DNA of 64,000 bases from Trypanosoma brucei (lineage: Eukaryota). The translations under genes and the position numbers were made by a program. The notes under the pieces are model-generated. The model was not told the DNA's origin and ran no database searches. It was given only the letters and a program-made list of their open reading frames with translations. The DNA is taken from positions 2,752,001 through 2,816,000 of the forward strand of contig CM000208.1 of NCBI GenBank assembly GCA_000002445.1. The letters run 5' to 3'. The first letter of the stretch is position 1, and every line of letters starts with the position of its first letter. Below are positions 50,305 through 57,114 of the stretch, one piece after another.

Positions 50305-53018
50305 AAAAATAAAATAAAATAGTTGATAGGAGTTGTTGGACAGTCTGAGTAAATGGAGGAAAAGAGAAAAGAGAAAAGGGGAATAGTGGGTGGTGTGTGA
50401 CGAAATGTAGAGATGCATCACCGCAGTGAGAGTGACGTCGAATTGGCGTCCAATTTCCATATGAGGTCACGACGTTCCTCACAAGCATGAATAAAATGAA
50501 ATGAAGAAGGAAATTTTTTTTTTTTTAAAAAAGAAAAATCAAAACCAATATCAATTAATAAATAAATATATTGTGTCCCCTCCATTTCCCTTGGTTGTCT
50601 GCTCTTTGTTGTTTTTTTTCTTCATTTTACTATTCATTTTATTTCTCTCCATCATGTCACATAATCCCTCAAGCTGTGACCCAGAGGAGGGAAATGAATA
50701 TCAAGAGGAAAAGATATTATATTTCAACATGTTTTGATGTAGAGAAGGATTGCACGTGTGCGTACACTTGAAGGCGTTTGAAGGAAAGGGAGAAGAAAGA
50801 GGGAGGGGAGAAGGAATTGTGATGGAAAGAAAGAGAAAAAAAAAAGAAAAAAAGAAAAAAAAGGGGGGAAAAAAGAGTAAAGGAAGAGCAAAACTAAGAC
50901 ATGCAAGAAAAAATAATATTAAATGAAGAAAGAAGAAACGAAAAAAAAAATCATATTGAATAATTGAGAGGGAATGATTGTTGTTGTTGTTGTTTTTTTT
51001 TTTTGCTCCCTCTTGTATTTTGTAAAGAAAGAAAAGAAAAAGATACGCGTACATCCCCTTTTCTCTTCATTTTCTTTTTTTCTTTTTTTTTTCCCCCTTT
51101 TGTCTCCTTTCCTACGTGAAGATTAATGCAAAAAAGATATTTTGTTGTTTTTTTCACCTTTTATCCCTCCTGAACTCTCGTTACTTCTGTTATATTTTTA
51201 CGATTTATTACTTCTCACTAGTGTTTTGGATGTTGGTGTTGGTTGAGTGTTCTTTGTGTTTTGTTTTTGTTTTTTATTATTTTGTTTCGGATTCTTATTT
51301 GTTTGTTTTATTTTCAATTTTTTTTTGTTGTGATTTAGCGTAGTGACGAGTGAATGGGACGAGAAGAAATACGATAGTGAATAGGAGAGTTTTTGTTCGT
51401 TTGTTTTTTGTTTTTGTTTTTGTGAAAAAGAGAAGTAAAGAAGGAGGAACCGAGCGGAGAAAAAATGGTGGGATGAAAGACAAAGGAATAAAAAATAAAA
51501 AAATAGGAGTGATGACGATGACTATGATGATGATGAATGGTAGAGAGAATAAATTTTATTATGTTGAGGAGTGTAGTGAAAAGGTGACAAAGAATTTTTG
51601 AAAAGGAAGAGATTTTGCAGGTGGAAAAAAGGGAGACGTTTAGTTTGAAAATGAAAGTAAATTGGCTGAATGGGGAGAGGGATTTTTTTAAAAAAAAAAT
51701 TAGTAATAATAATAATAAAATCAGCGAATAGACGAGTGGAATGGCAAAATAACAATATCAACAACAACAGATTAAAAGGAAGGAAAAAAAAAAATAGAAC
51801 AGAGTAAAAGTAAAAAATGCCAACAGAGCACTACTACCACCGAAATCAAGAACAAAACAAATCAATACAGAAAAAAAAAATACGGAAGAAAGACGATGAG
51901 AAACGAGGGAATTCAGAAAAAGAAAAAAAAATAAGAGAGATAAGGAAGGGGGAGCGCACGAAGATGTGAATGAGTGACAAAGCAAATATAACCAAAAGCA
52001 GTTATTATTATTATTATTTGTTATTGTTATTGTTGTTATTGTTAGTAGACAAGAAGGATGAGTGATAACGACGTACCCATTTTTGTCTGTGTTTATGTTT
52101 GTGCTTGTGTGTTTTTTTTTCCCTGTGATTTGCGAAGAATATAAATATATAAATATATATAAGTATATATAAATAAATATATATAAATATTTACTTATAC
52201 AATATGTGTTCGTCTGTGATGTTTTTGTGTGTGTGTCTATGAGCTGCGAAAAGAATGATGAATGAAAATTTATTTCTTTTAAACACTATGTTTGAAGGAA
52301 GTAAAGGCTATAGATTGTTTGACATCGGTGGTGTGAAAGGGGACAAAAAAGCAAAGAGAGGTCAGCTTTTTGTGTTTCATTTGTTTTCTTTTTTCTCCTT
52401 TTTCTCCTTTTTTTCTTTTTTTCTTTTTTTTAAAATCACCATTGAGGTGAACAGGTAGAGGTGTTGTAGAGATATGAAAGTGGATATAACGACGCAGAGC
52501 GTGGCGTAGACAAAAATTAAAAAAAATTAAAATTAATGCAGAAGAAAGGAGGAAAAGGTGTGTGTGGCGGATCTGGAAGGGGAAGTGACGAAAAAAAAAA
52601 ATGAAAGTGAGAAGCATTCACTATCTCCATTTTTTCCTCTTTATTTTGTTGTGCCCGGGAATTTCTTTTTTTTTTTTCTTATTGGACCTTTAGGGAGGAC
52701 GTTGATGCGTTCTTCTCCAATTTTTGTCTTACTTCTTTTATTTTATTTTATTTTATTTCTTGTTTGTAGTGCTGTGCTTTTTCTTCGTCTTCTCTTTGTC
52801 TGTTTTTCTTTTTCTTTTTTTGTTTTCATGTGCTGTTTGTGCCCCTTCTTACATTTTTTTTTCTACACGCAAATCCATTTGATGGACTTGCTTCTGTGGA
52901 GCTGGGGAATCTCAGTTTCGAAATATACAATAATAATAATATTATTATTATTACATTAATATAAATATTATTATTAGTGGTAATATTTATTGTAGTGTTC
53001 GTATCTTTCCTTTTCTCC

Positions 53019-53043
53019 TTCCATTCCATTCCATTCCATTCCC
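53019..53043. repeat. (CCATT)n pentanucleotide repeat
   Basis: ttccattccattccattccattccc. Confidence 0.8.
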
Positions 53044-53267
53044 TTTTCTTTTTCTTCTCCCTTCTCCCTTTTCCCTCTCCTTTCTTTCCTTCCTTATGTT
53101 CTTTTTCTTTTTCCTTCTGATTTTCCTCATTTTACATGTTGACCTTCCGTTGCAGAGGAGTATTTATTATGCTTGTGTGTATGTGAGGGGGGAAAAAAAG
53201 AAGTGAAAAGAAATGTGAAGGTGAAGGCCGAGTGGGATGCATCGGGACGATTGTTATATTTGCTTCA

Positions 53268-53365
53268 TTATATATTATATATTATATATATATATATATA
53301 TTATTATTATTATTATTACCATTATTGTTAATATTAATATTATTATTACTACTACTATTACTATT
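53268..53365. repeat. Compound (TA)n/(ATT)n/(TAC)n simple-repeat block
   Basis: tatatattatatattatatatatatatatatattattattattattattaccattattgttaatattaatattattattactactactattactatt. Confidence 0.85.
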
Positions 53366-55611: not shown

Positions 55612-56001
55612 ATGCTTTCAAGACAATTAGTAACGAGGTGCGGCATGGGCATACGACCAGCACTTATCAACCAGGTTTCCATGGGATGTGGAGGTGTTTG
55701 CTTCACGGGTTTACGCTGTGAGAAACGCGGGGTTTCTCAAATTGCTGCCAACCTCGCAACTCACGCGCTTCAGGTGCCATCATGCTTTTCACTCAGCACA
55801 CTTTTGTATTCACCATTGGGTACTGCCATGCTCATTGTGTTGGCATATAATATGGTGGTAGTTGGAACCAAACAAATGACATATATCATGGAAATTACAG
55901 GTAAGGATTATGTGCAGGATCAGCAACTGCATCAAATTATGAAGTATGGCATCCTGAGTTGCTTACTTCTTGCGATGGAGGTGCTTTTTGTGGAGGTGTG
56001 A
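55612..56001 (+). CDS. Small hypothetical protein (129 aa) with mitochondrial-presequence-like N-terminus and two hydrophobic segments, isolated inside a 6.8 kb low-complexity spacer
   Basis: The track ORF 55480 includes a spurious Lys/Glu/Arg-rich extension translated from a purine tract. First ATG at 55612 gives 'MLSRQLVTRCGMGIRPALINQ' (Arg/Ser/Leu-rich, no acidic residues), then hydrophobic 'AMLIVLAYNMVVVG' and 'YGILSCLLLAMEVLFV'. Composition is coding-like, unlike its surroundings. Confidence 0.3.
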   Translation: MLSRQLVTRCGMGIRPALINQVSMGCGGVCFTGLRCEKRGVSQIAANLATHALQVPSCFSLSTLLYSPLGTAMLIVLAYNMVVVGTKQMTYIMEITGKDYVQDQQLHQIMKYGILSCLLLAMEVLFVEV

Positions 56002-56515
56002 AGTATAATATGAGGGTTATTATTCAGTATTAGTAAGGAAAAAGAAAAGAAAAATGTTGTAGGTATGAACTGAAACTAGGATGCAGAGAAGAAGAAGAAG
56101 GAGGGGAAGGGGGCAAAAGAAAAAAAAATAAAAATAAAAATAGAAACGCATCTGCACATGGCTCGGAATGGGGCACGAGCGTGTTAAGGTGAATTAAAAC
56201 AAGTCTCAAGTAATGAAGCGAACCACTTATAGTGTCCCACGGTAGTGATATCTTTTGTAAGAGTATTTTATTGCGTACGATTCGTTCGCATCGGAGTCGT
56301 AGTCACAAGTGCCCTCCTTTTTTTTATAAAAAAAACCTTTGTATCGACTACATCCTGAAAGGGGAAACACACTGAAAAGTGCAATTATCAATAAAAGGAA
56401 GAGGACTGGGGATGCAAAACAAAAAAAAAACGGATGGAAAGGTAGGGGGTAAGGAAGTTACATATCAATGTTCAATGAAACCAGTGAAATGGGGATAGGT
56501 CATGTACGCACGCAT

Positions 56516-56543
56516 ATGCATATATATATATATATATATATAT
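56516..56543. repeat. (TA)n microsatellite
   Basis: catatatatatatatatatatatatatgg. Confidence 0.85.
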
Positions 56544-57114
56544 GGTAACTTTGTCTGTGCGTGTTTGCATGTTTGTATACCTGTGAAAGTCCTCTTGAAG
56601 ACGGTGACAATACCAGCGAGTATGAGAGACGGTTGGTCTTTAAGAGAAGAAACGCGACGCGTGTTACCTTTTTTATTTTTCCTTCATCTTGGTATCTTTT
56701 CTGTCTTATTGTGAGTTTTGGGTGTTTTTTCCTTTGTTTATGTCTCACTGTTTGATACCCAGTGTCGATAAATATTTTTCACGTTCGCCTGTTGTGCTCC
56801 ACCATTCGATCATTTATTTGTTATTGACATCACTATTATTATTATTATTATTGTGACTCTCTGTATTGTGTTGTTTTCGTTTGGTGGCAGGTCTCCCCGC
56901 CCAAGGACATAGTGTTGGTGACAGAGTGTTACTGGACGCACATAAACACCTAACAGGAAGTAAAGGAGGCTTGGAAACGAAAGAAAAAAAAACATAAGTA
57001 GATAAATAATTGAAATAGGTAAAAAGGACGGGACGGAATACCTTCAGCACTTTGAGAGAGAAAAAAGTGCCCTAACGGACCAAAAAGGGGAGGAGAAGCG
57101 AAGTCAAACGGGGA

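What the first reader, a model, noticed from the sequence alone, without database searches (positions are those of the whole stretch)
50305..57114. 6.8 kb gene-free low-complexity block with alternating purine/pyrimidine strand asymmetry between two same-strand genes
Most spacers in this window are 0.3-1.7 kb and pyrimidine-rich on the sense strand, as expected for kinetoplastid trans-splicing and polyadenylation. Here nearly 7 kb separates the PUF gene from the next large gene, and composition flips every 0.3-1 kb between T/C-rich blocks (about 50500-50750, 51000-51350, 52080-53550, 54520-55100) and A/G-rich blocks on the same strand (about 50760-51000, 51350-52050, 53560-54500, 55200-55610, 56030-56470). 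Purine-rich sense-strand stretches are atypical for an ordinary 3'UTR/intergenic region. Candidate explanations are a head-to-tail polycistron boundary (termination then re-initiation on the same strand), a multi-kb regulated 3'UTR of the PUF gene, or hidden ncRNA loci.
Basis: partly seen in the sequence, partly recalled or inferred. Interest (0 to 1): 0.55.

Follow-up and report, generated by a model that had tools for sequence, protein, structure and literature searches.

The report
Long PUF6 3'UTR plus small gene

Summary
The window is Trypanosoma brucei-group DNA. The PUF gene is PUF6 (Tb927.10.11760). The composition claim holds. Region 50305-55611 is AT-rich (GC 0.33) and switches between purine-rich and pyrimidine-rich blocks far more than chance or the other spacers in the window.

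"Gene-free" is wrong. A 129-codon ORF at 55612-56001 (+) is conserved across trypanosomatids. It matches the reference gene Tb927.10.11770 in length (390-nt CDS) and position. The block therefore splits into a 5.3 kb spacer, a gene and a 1.1 kb spacer.

A published table built on TriTrypDB annotation gives PUF6 mRNA as 6453 nt against a 2532-nt CDS. That implies a 3'UTR of at least about 3.1 kb, probably about 3.5-3.8 kb. Several-kb 3'UTRs are described as typical of trypanosome RNA-binding-protein mRNAs.

The PUF6-to-small-gene spacing is 4.5-8 kb in T. cruzi, T. melophagium, T. theileri, Leptomonas seymouri and a Leishmania species. It is only about 0.6 kb in Angomonas. Primary sequence is not conserved.

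I found no tRNA, no Rfam family, no other conserved ORF and no dispersed repeat. A same-strand transcription-unit boundary or lncRNAs in the distal 1.5 kb cannot be excluded without RNA or chromatin data.

Verdict: already known, low interest.

The parts
47773..50304 (+). PUF6 coding sequence (Tb927.10.11760), 843 aa, Pumilio repeats
   Evidence: Pfam PUF E = 5.7e-58. [quoted passage not shown]
50305..54100 (+). Part of the PUF6 3'UTR implied by the published mRNA length. It is AT-rich simple-repeat sequence with alternating polypurine and polypyrimidine blocks. The 3' end is approximate, about 53.4-54.1 kb depending on 5'UTR length.
   Evidence: Published mRNA length 6453 nt against a 2532-nt CDS. 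Those lengths came from TriTrypDB and only mRNAs with annotated poly(A) sites were kept. The upstream spacer is 840 nt, and a likely splice acceptor near 47364-47372 gives a 5'UTR of about 400 nt. No conserved ORF on either strand.
51054..53118 (+). Strong internal polypyrimidine tracts inside the inferred 3'UTR: 51054-51113, 52384-52431, 52777-52821 and 53004-53118. They include the longest tract in the window (115 nt).
   Evidence: Tract scans. At the published mRNA length these tracts must be read through rather than used as processing signals (inference).
54437..54985 (+). Pyrimidine-rich block holding four tracts (54437-54456, 54545-54568, 54623-54714, 54951-54985), each followed by an AG. 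It is a candidate trans-splicing signal coupled to PUF6 polyadenylation upstream. The resulting product would be either a long 5'UTR of the small gene or a non-coding spliced RNA.
   Evidence: Tract scan with first downstream AG. R = 0.29 for 54520-55100. The function is inferred, not shown.
55405..55500 (+). Proximal interrupted polypyrimidine tract followed by AG dinucleotides (about 55486-55494). It is a candidate splice acceptor for the small gene. An A-rich stretch at 55240-55360 upstream is a candidate distal PUF6 poly(A) zone.
   Evidence: Read directly from the sequence. Inferred only.
55612..56001 (+). Small protein-coding gene of 129 aa, identified with Tb927.10.11770 by CDS length and position. 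It is a conserved kinetoplastid protein classed 'Mito.pathway' in the published table. Some database records name its orthologues succinate dehydrogenase cytochrome b subunit.
   Evidence: Translation. There are 24 homologues, E = 6e-70 to 8e-28, across Trypanosoma, Leishmania, Leptomonas, Angomonas and Strigomonas. It is the only segment of 50305-57114 conserved at protein level in other species. The GC-rich island falls in the windows covering 55600-55899. Tb927.10.11770 is listed with a 390-nt CDS, the same length as this ORF with its stop codon.
56002..57114 (+). Ordinary 1.1 kb spacer. It would hold the 3'UTR of the small gene, a pyrimidine-rich stretch at about 56660-56870, and the 5'UTR of the next gene.
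   Evidence: GC 0.38, R 0.57. Sequence read. No conserved ORF.
57115..60606 (+). Next large gene, 1163 aa with no Pfam domain. It is the syntenic neighbour of the small gene in T. cruzi, T. melophagium, T. theileri and Leptomonas.

Best explanation
The interval is not one element. It is a normal stretch of a T. brucei polycistronic unit made of four parts:
1. The several-kb 3'UTR of PUF6 mRNA (Tb927.10.11760), starting at 50305.
2. A processing region, where pyrimidine tracts and AG dinucleotides direct trans-splicing of the downstream RNA and, coupled to it, polyadenylation of the upstream RNA.
3. The small gene Tb927.10.11770 at 55612-56001.
4. A 1.1 kb spacer before the next gene.

The alternating purine and pyrimidine blocks are the simple-repeat make-up of long Trypanosoma UTR and intergenic sequence. 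They are fast-evolving microsatellite-like tracts, not a specific signal.

How it most likely works (inferred):
- RNA polymerase II reads straight through.
- The strong internal pyrimidine tracts at 51.0-53.1 kb are normally not used as processing signals. The published model for other long 3'UTRs is that RNA-binding proteins such as DRBD18 cover them.
- The PUF6 mRNA therefore keeps a 3'UTR of about 3.5 kb or more.
- Such a 3'UTR can keep mRNA abundance low through its length and offers many binding sites for regulators.

Shown: gene content, composition, synteny and spacer length across species, and the published mRNA length. Inferred: the exact poly(A) and splice sites, and the regulatory role.
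For: Gene layout and content:
- All large ORFs in the window are on the + strand, so there is no strand switch.
- The small ORF is conserved kinetoplastid-wide. It is the only protein-level conservation in 50305-57114 on either strand. Tb927.10.11770 is listed with a 390-nt CDS, matching this ORF.

Published mRNA length:
- PUF6 'Filtered mRNA length' is 6453 nt in Antwi et al. 2016 Table S1 (PMC4845500).
- With a 2532-nt CDS and a 5'UTR below 840 nt, the 3'UTR is at least about 3.1 kb.

Published context:
- Clayton 2019 (PMC6597758, section 5.13) states that mRNAs of many RNA-binding proteins and kinases have 3'UTRs several kb long.
- DRBD18-bound mRNAs have significantly longer 3'UTRs than unbound ones, and the authors' conclusion is that DRBD18 prevents use of 3'UTR-internal pyrimidine tracts (PMC9380746).

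Cross-species spacing, PUF6 stop to small-gene start:
- T. brucei 5307 nt.
- T. theileri 5141 nt, including 1535 N.
- T. cruzi 4513 nt.
- T. melophagium 4955 nt.
- Leptomonas seymouri 5087 nt.
- Leishmania sp. Namibia 8009 nt.
- T. vivax at least 5276 nt.
- Neighbouring spacers in these loci are much shorter: 0.2-1.5 kb in the Trypanosoma loci and up to 1.7 kb in Leptomonas.

Other points:
- The second long simple-repeat gap in the window (18780-23541) also follows a putative RNA-associated regulator, a PSP1-domain protein.
- No tRNA and no Rfam family at gathering score. Sub-threshold Rfam hits fall mainly on (TA)n, (TG)n or other low-complexity sequence.
Against: - No RNA-seq, spliced-leader or poly(A) data could be examined directly. 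The mRNA length is one table value. A poly(A) site near 53.84 kb would lie at a T-run/A-run junction and could reflect internal oligo(dT) priming, so the true 3' end could be elsewhere.
- About 1.5-1.8 kb (about 54.1-55.5 kb) is not accounted for by the published length. It could be a long 5'UTR, a separate non-coding RNA or a longer 3'UTR isoform.
- No known regulatory motif is enriched. UGUA occurs 23 times against 24 expected, UGUANAUA 0 times, and the RBP10 motif 2 times against 2 expected.
- No sequence is conserved between species, so a specific regulatory function is not demonstrated.
- In Angomonas deanei the same gene pair is only about 0.6 kb apart. A long spacer is therefore dispensable in at least one lineage.
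Confidence: 0.8

Rival explanations
1. Same-strand (head-to-tail) polycistron boundary. RNA polymerase II terminates after PUF6 and re-initiates within the gap, for example in the distal part before Tb927.10.11770. The low-complexity, GT-rich or purine-rich tracts would act as nucleosome-positioning or promoter sequence.
For: - The spacer is unusually long and keeps that length in several genera.
- About 1.5 kb distal to the inferred PUF6 3' end is unassigned.
- GT-rich stretches (for example 51220-51340 and 53660-53720) and G or C runs (54008-54030, 55232-55241) are present. From my own knowledge, not tested here, such sequences have been linked to T. brucei start regions.
Against: - No tRNA, snRNA or other small-RNA gene is present. 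That such genes commonly accompany internal boundaries is my own knowledge.
- The published PUF6 mRNA length covers at least 3.1 kb of the gap.
- A similar gap follows another regulator gene in the same window, which fits the long-3'UTR pattern better.
- In Angomonas the pair is about 0.6 kb apart.
- There is no positive sequence test for such boundaries.
Confidence: 0.06
2. One or more independent non-coding RNAs are produced from within the gap, using the internal pyrimidine tracts. These would be spliced-leader-capped, polyadenylated lncRNAs, or a snoRNA host. The region would then be partly a set of lncRNA genes rather than only a 3'UTR.
For: - The gap holds the strongest pyrimidine tracts of the window, each followed by an AG.
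- 1428 mostly intergenic, low-GC, SL- and poly(A)-bearing lncRNAs have been reported in T. brucei (PMC9200285).
- The processing scheme in Clayton 2019 explicitly allows extra ORF-less RNAs from intergenic regions.
- A structured patch at 52850-53010 folds with z = -5.7.
Against: - No Rfam family reaches its gathering score.
- The structured patch is built from (AAU)n/(AUU)n palindromic microsatellites.
- No sequence is conserved across species.
- The published PUF6 mRNA length spans most of the candidate tracts.
- Such by-product RNAs would be compatible with the main explanation rather than an alternative to it.
Confidence: 0.12
3. The region is functionless junk. It would be an expanded microsatellite or slippage-prone spacer with no selective value, its length conserved only by chance or mutational bias.
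For: - No primary sequence is conserved between species.
- Divergence from T. equiperdum is about 10 times higher than in neighbouring spacers, 97.8% identity with 31 gap positions against 99.8-100%.
- About 40 simple-repeat rows.
- No motif enrichment.
- The spacer is short in Angomonas.
Against: - A 4.5-8 kb spacer at exactly this gene junction occurs in six sampled species of three genera, and T. vivax adds a lower bound of 5.3 kb. Their other spacers are much shorter, 0.2-1.7 kb. That is hard to explain without some constraint.
- At least 3 kb of it is part of a mature mRNA.
Confidence: 0.1

Closest known systems
Multi-kb 3'UTRs of trypanosome RNA-binding-protein mRNAs (for example RBP10, DRBD12, ZC3H20-22)
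   Same: - It follows an RNA-binding-protein gene.
- It is several kb long, AT-rich and of low complexity.
- It contains internal polypyrimidine tracts that must be bypassed.
- The mature mRNA is much longer than the CDS (6453 against 2532 nt).
   Different: - No regulatory element or binding protein has been mapped here.
- The motifs I tested (RBP10 motif, UGUA, ARE) are not enriched.
- Published proteome data list T. brucei PUF6 as 'not regulated' between life stages, so a developmental role for this UTR is not established.
Head-to-tail transcription-unit boundaries of T. brucei (internal termination and start sites marked by H3.V/base J and H2A.Z/H4K10ac)
   Same: A long non-coding interval between same-strand genes, containing GT-rich and G-rich tracts.
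   Different: - No tRNA or other small-RNA gene is present.
- Most of the interval is covered by an annotated mRNA.
- The defining chromatin marks are not testable here.
T. brucei intergenic lncRNAs (for example grumpy and the 1428-gene set)
   Same: Low-GC intergenic sequence with regular splice and polyadenylation motifs that could yield SL- and poly(A)-bearing RNAs.
   Different: - I had no evidence of an independent transcript.
- No embedded snoRNA was detected with Rfam.

Membership tests
Long regulatory 3'UTR of a trypanosome RNA-binding-protein mRNA | Lies directly downstream of, and on the same strand as, an RNA-binding-protein CDS, with no intervening coding gene | tested here: met
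   PUF6 CDS ends at 50304. No conserved ORF on either strand in 50305-55400. GC is 0.33.
Long regulatory 3'UTR of a trypanosome RNA-binding-protein mRNA | The mature mRNA length shows a several-kb UTR | tested here: met
   Literature table: PUF6 mRNA 6453 nt against a 2532-nt CDS. I did not verify this against raw RNA data.
Long regulatory 3'UTR of a trypanosome RNA-binding-protein mRNA | A mapped poly(A) site upstream of the polypyrimidine/AG signal used by the downstream RNA | not testable with these tools
   Candidate signals are at 54437-54985 and 55405-55500. No poly(A) or SL read data were available.
Long regulatory 3'UTR of a trypanosome RNA-binding-protein mRNA | Contains elements that change mRNA stability or translation | tested here: inconclusive
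   Known motifs are not enriched and no sequence is conserved. AAGAA is about 2-fold enriched, 41 against 22 expected, as a consequence of the purine tracts.
Head-to-tail polycistron boundary | Termination marks (H3.V, H4.V, base J) followed by start marks (H2A.Z, H2B.V, H4K10ac) | not testable with these tools
   No chromatin data are available.
Head-to-tail polycistron boundary | Frequently associated tRNA, snRNA or other Pol III genes | tested here: not met
   ARAGORN found 0 genes in the whole window. Rfam gave 0 matches at gathering score. This feature is common but not obligatory.
snoRNA or other known structured ncRNA locus | Match to a curated covariance model, or a tandemly repeated snoRNA cluster | tested here: not met
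   No gathering-score matches. The E-value scan gave only hits of 34 bits or less, against gathering scores of 64-100, mainly on (TA)n, (TG)n or other low-complexity sequence. Only simple-sequence repeats were found.
Protein-coding gene (the small ORF at 55612-56001, Tb927.10.11770) | An ORF conserved at protein level in the syntenic position in other species | tested here: met
   Homologues E = 6e-70 to 8e-28. Synteny PUF6, small gene, ~1150-1420-aa gene in T. cruzi, T. melophagium, T. theileri and Leptomonas, with the dynein light chain gene next in T. cruzi, T. melophagium and Leptomonas. The N-terminus aligns with orthologues starting from the first ATG.
Succinate dehydrogenase (complex II) membrane subunit | Demonstrated presence in purified complex II, or sequence or structure similarity to SdhC/SdhD | tested here: not met
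   No Pfam family matched and no PDB sequence match at E up to 1. The name comes only from database records of T. cruzi, T. rangeli and T. theileri orthologues. I could not retrieve the primary complex II paper.

The most novel reading that the evidence does not exclude
The length of the PUF6 downstream spacer may itself be under selection. It is about 4.5-8 kb in Trypanosoma, Leptomonas and Leishmania although the sequence has turned over completely. The spacer would then act as a sequence-independent timer or length-dependent attenuator of PUF6 expression, for example through co-transcriptional degradation of long precursors. Alternatively it could host lineage-specific lncRNAs made from the unusually strong internal pyrimidine tracts. 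The short spacer in Angomonas would be a derived loss in a compacted genome.
Probability: 0.15. Interest if true: 0.4.

Novelty: already known. Interest (0 to 1): 0.12.

Why it matters
Very little is new here. Both genes are in the T. brucei reference annotation, and long 3'UTRs on RNA-binding-protein mRNAs are a described feature of trypanosome gene regulation.

The useful outcomes are corrective. The block is not gene-free. Purine/pyrimidine blockiness is a general property of long Trypanosoma spacers and not a boundary signal.

One modest point could interest specialists in kinetoplastid post-transcriptional control. The spacer length at this junction is kept across genera with no sequence conservation, and it contains the strongest pyrimidine tracts of the window, which are apparently bypassed. 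That makes PUF6 a reasonable test case for how internal processing signals in long 3'UTRs are suppressed.

Tried and rejected
1. Known RNA families. Rfam at gathering score over the whole window and at E up to 1 over 50000-57400, plus ARAGORN. Nothing beyond low-scoring microRNA and snoRNA model hits, mainly on (TA)n, (TG)n or other low-complexity sequence.

2. Hidden coding genes. I compared six-frame stop-to-stop ORFs of at least 25 aa from 50305-57114 with the syntenic regions of five species by tblastn. Only the small gene is conserved.
   - A 400-aa ORF in the Leishmania gap was rejected as spurious. Its GC3 is 0.48 against 0.70-0.78 for real genes, its translation is low-complexity, and it has no Pfam or cross-species hit.

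3. Conserved non-coding elements. blastn of the gap against T. vivax, T. theileri, T. cruzi, T. melophagium and Leishmania gave only short simple-sequence matches.

4. Regulatory motif enrichment for UGUA, UGUANAUA, the PUF9 motif, the RBP10 motif and ARE. None is enriched. AAGAA and UAUAUA are enriched only as part of the simple repeats.

5. Masking of pyrimidine tracts by pairing. The idea was that adjacent complementary purine tracts base-pair with the internal pyrimidine tracts and hide them from the splicing machinery. Partition-function unpaired probabilities were 0.13-0.58 for internal tracts and 0.02-0.67 for tracts near genes. There is no difference, so I dropped the idea.

6. Structured-RNA scan with 150-nt windows on both strands. 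The strongest signal, at 52850-53010 with z = -5.7, is built from palindromic AAU/AUU microsatellites.

7. Dispersed repeats or transposon remnants. Only simple-sequence families were found.

8. Per-gene supplements of several papers (DRBD18, ZC3H28, lncRNA catalogue) were not held as text. I could not check whether PUF6 is a DRBD18 target or whether lncRNAs are annotated in the gap.

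
Full report
**Identity of the window**

All ORFs of at least 200 aa lie on the + strand. The 843-aa protein ending at 50304 has seven Pumilio repeats (Pfam PUF, E = 5.7e-58). [quoted passage not shown] It is 75% identical to the T. 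congolense orthologue and 67% to the T. vivax one. The window is therefore T. brucei-group DNA and the gene is PUF6, Tb927.10.11760 in the reference numbering used in the literature.

**The observation**

- The interval from 50305 to 57114 is the longest spacing between large ORFs in the window.
- It is AT-rich. GC is 0.33 for 50305-55611 and 0.38 for 56002-57114, against 0.52 in coding sequence.
Two of the pyrimidine blocks have 0.29-0.32.
- Block 50500-50750 is not pyrimidine-rich (0.47). Block 52080-53550 is heterogeneous (0.41 overall, with a purine peak of 0.77 at 52500-52599).
- The SD of purine fraction in 100-nt windows is 0.197. First-order Markov simulations give 0.060 and fifth-order give 0.125 (maximum 0.149). 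The other spacers in the window give 0.04-0.16.
- A tract scan finds 11 polypyrimidine and 24 polypurine tracts of at least 20 nt. Tandem Repeats Finder lists about 40 simple-repeat rows.
- The blockiness is therefore real and non-random.
Their purine fraction is 0.39-0.55.
- A second gap in the same window, 18780-23541, has the same character (GC 0.32, SD 0.152).

**The block is not gene-free**

- The only GC-rich island in the interval falls in the windows covering 55600-55899, with GC up to 0.50. It coincides with an ATG-initiated ORF of 129 codons at 55612-56001 (+).
- Its product has 24 homologues, with E from 6e-70 to 8e-28. They occur in T. conorhini, T. grayi, T. rangeli, T. cruzi, T. 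melophagium, T. theileri, Angomonas, Strigomonas, Leptomonas and Leishmania.
- The orthologues align from the first ATG.
- In a six-frame comparison of the whole interval with the syntenic regions of five species, this ORF is the only segment conserved at protein level on either strand.
- Antwi et al. 2016 list Tb927.10.11770 as 'hypothetical protein, conserved', class 'Mito.pathway', with a 390-nt CDS. That is exactly the length of this ORF with its stop codon, and the gene number is the one directly after PUF6.
- Some database records name orthologues 'succinate dehydrogenase cytochrome b subunit'. I could not confirm that name. There is no Pfam match and no PDB sequence match.
- The 6.8 kb block is therefore a 5307-nt spacer, a gene, and an ordinary 1113-nt spacer.

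**What the 5.3 kb spacer is**

- Antwi et al. 2016, Table S1, give a 'Filtered mRNA length' of 6453 nt for PUF6.
- The CDS is 2532 nt and the upstream spacer is only 840 nt, so the 3'UTR must be at least about 3.1 kb.
- The likely acceptor after the pyrimidine tract at 47274-47340 (AG at about 47364-47372) gives a 5'UTR of about 400 nt and a 3'UTR of about 3.5 kb. That places the 3' end near 53.8 kb. A more proximal acceptor would place it near 54.1 kb.
- Either position lies in the purine- and A-rich block just upstream of the large pyrimidine block at 54437-54985. This is the arrangement expected from the coupling of polyadenylation to downstream trans-splicing in trypanosomes (scheme in PMC6597758).
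- A second candidate acceptor is the interrupted pyrimidine tract at 55405-55480, followed by AGs at about 55486-55494. It would give the small gene a 5'UTR of about 120 nt. It would also allow a distal PUF6 poly(A) zone in the A-rich stretch at 55240-55360.
- I cannot tell which signals are used.
- A poly(A) site near 53.84 kb would sit on a T-run/A-run junction. It could therefore be an internal-priming artefact.

**Fit with what is known**

[quoted passage not shown] It suggests that these either keep abundance low through length or allow more stringent control.
- Bishola Tshitenge et al. 2022 found that DRBD18-bound mRNAs have significantly longer 3'UTRs, and their section heading describes these as containing polypyrimidine tracts. 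They conclude that DRBD18 prevents internal pyrimidine tracts from being recognised by the splicing machinery. Its depletion yields shortened mRNAs, for example DRBD12 going from 8.4 to 2.6 kb.
- The PUF6 spacer fits this description well. It holds the longest pyrimidine tracts of the whole window: 115 nt at 53004-53118, 92 nt at 54623-54714 and 60 nt at 51054-51113, against 43 nt or less elsewhere.
- At the published mRNA length, the tracts up to 53118 must be read through.
- The other long simple-repeat gap in the window follows a PSP1-domain protein gene, which I take to be another putative RNA-associated regulator.

**Comparative evidence**

The gene order PUF6, small gene, a gene of about 1150-1420 aa, then axonemal dynein light chain is conserved. 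In T. theileri the fetched locus ends before the dynein gene.

| Species | PUF6 stop to small-gene start |
|---|---|
| T. brucei | 5307 nt |
| T. theileri | 5141 nt (includes 1535 N, so approximate) |
| T. cruzi | 4513 nt |
| T. melophagium | 4955 nt |
| Leptomonas seymouri | 5087 nt |
| Leishmania sp. Namibia | 8009 nt |
| T. vivax | at least 5276 nt (contig ends) |
| Angomonas deanei | about 0.6 kb |

- The other spacers in these loci are much shorter, 0.2-1.5 kb in the Trypanosoma loci and up to 1.7 kb in Leptomonas.
- The only long ORF in the Leishmania gap is spurious.
- Primary sequence is not conserved. Only short simple-sequence matches are found.
- Even against T. equiperdum the gap is 97.8% identical with 31 gap positions, while neighbouring spacers are 99.8-100% identical.
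- The purine/pyrimidine blockiness is shared by T. cruzi (SD 0.194) and T. melophagium (0.191), but not by Leptomonas (0.10).
- In Angomonas deanei the PUF6 homologue ends at about 9392 and the small gene starts at 10001.
- A long spacer at this junction is therefore widespread but not universal. The blocky composition is a Trypanosoma sequence style and not a conserved signal.

- Hidden ncRNA loci. ARAGORN finds no tRNA in the window. Rfam finds nothing at gathering score. The permissive scan gives only hits of 34 bits or less, against gathering scores of 64-100, mainly on (TA)n, (TG)n or other low-complexity sequence.
- A structure scan finds one strongly stable patch at 52850-53010 (z = -5.7), but it is made of palindromic AAU/AUU microsatellites.
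- SL-capped, polyadenylated lncRNAs are common in T. brucei intergenic DNA (1428 reported). They could arise from the internal tracts. I could not check the catalogue.
- Head-to-tail polycistron boundary. There is no positive evidence and the defining chromatin marks cannot be tested here. The published mRNA length rules out a boundary in the first 3 kb or so. The distal 1.5 kb remains formally open.

**Ideas tested and dropped**

- Known regulatory motifs are not enriched.
- I tested whether flanking complementary purine tracts mask internal pyrimidine tracts by pairing. Computed unpaired probabilities do not differ between internal tracts and tracts near genes.

**Verdict**

- The compositional observation is real but describes the normal texture of a long Trypanosoma 3'UTR and spacer.
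- The 'gene-free' claim is wrong.
- Both genes and the long mRNA are already in the reference annotation and literature, so the finding is already known and of low interest.
- The residual point of interest is that spacer length at this junction is retained across genera without sequence conservation, together with unusually strong internal pyrimidine tracts that appear to be bypassed.

Noticed in passing
window 18780-23541 (gene 16875-18779 upstream): A second long spacer (4.76 kb, GC 0.32, purine-fraction SD 0.152) has the same simple-repeat, block-alternating style. It follows a gene for a PSP1 C-terminal domain protein and is probably another multi-kb 3'UTR of a regulator gene.
   Followed up: partly
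window 22631, 51683, 53835, 55574: The palindromic junction TTTTTTTAAAAAAA occurs four times in the window, against 0 expected from shuffles. All four lie inside the two long spacers. Near-copies are at about 50516 and 56321. The copy at 53835 lies where the published mRNA length would place the PUF6 3' end, which raises the possibility of an internal-priming artefact.
   Followed up: partly
window 52850-53010 (+): This is the most stable local RNA fold in the region (-42.7 kcal/mol, z = -5.7). It is built from (AAU)n/(AUU)n inverted microsatellites plus two small GC hairpins. There is no cross-species conservation.
   Followed up: partly
window 53004-53118, 54623-54714, 51054-51113: The three longest polypyrimidine tracts of the whole 64 kb window (115, 92 and 60 nt) lie inside the PUF6 downstream spacer and not directly upstream of any gene. 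Tracts elsewhere are 43 nt or shorter.
   Followed up: partly
L008 (Angomonas deanei) 7363-10001: The PUF6 homologue and the small gene are only about 0.6 kb apart. The PUF6 region is annotated there as fragments: a 64-aa 'PUF' product at 9198-9392, plus an unrelated-looking 608-aa call upstream. This suggests mis-annotation or frameshifts in that assembly.
   Followed up: partly
window 9804-10160 (inside ORF 8427-10229, +): A tandem array with a 6/12-nt period (17 overlapping 63-nt copies, GC-rich CGNAGY-type units) lies within a 600-aa ORF that has no Pfam domain. It would encode a repetitive low-complexity protein segment.
   Followed up: no
window 55612 vs 55645: The only 100%-identical database protein for the small gene is a 118-aa Logan prediction that starts at the second ATG (55645). 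Orthologue N-termini (MF[AS]RR...) and the 390-nt CDS length listed for Tb927.10.11770 support the first ATG at 55612. No T. brucei-group protein from NCBI appeared among the hits, so some assemblies probably do not call this small gene. For example, the T. equiperdum contig ends before it.
   Followed up: partly
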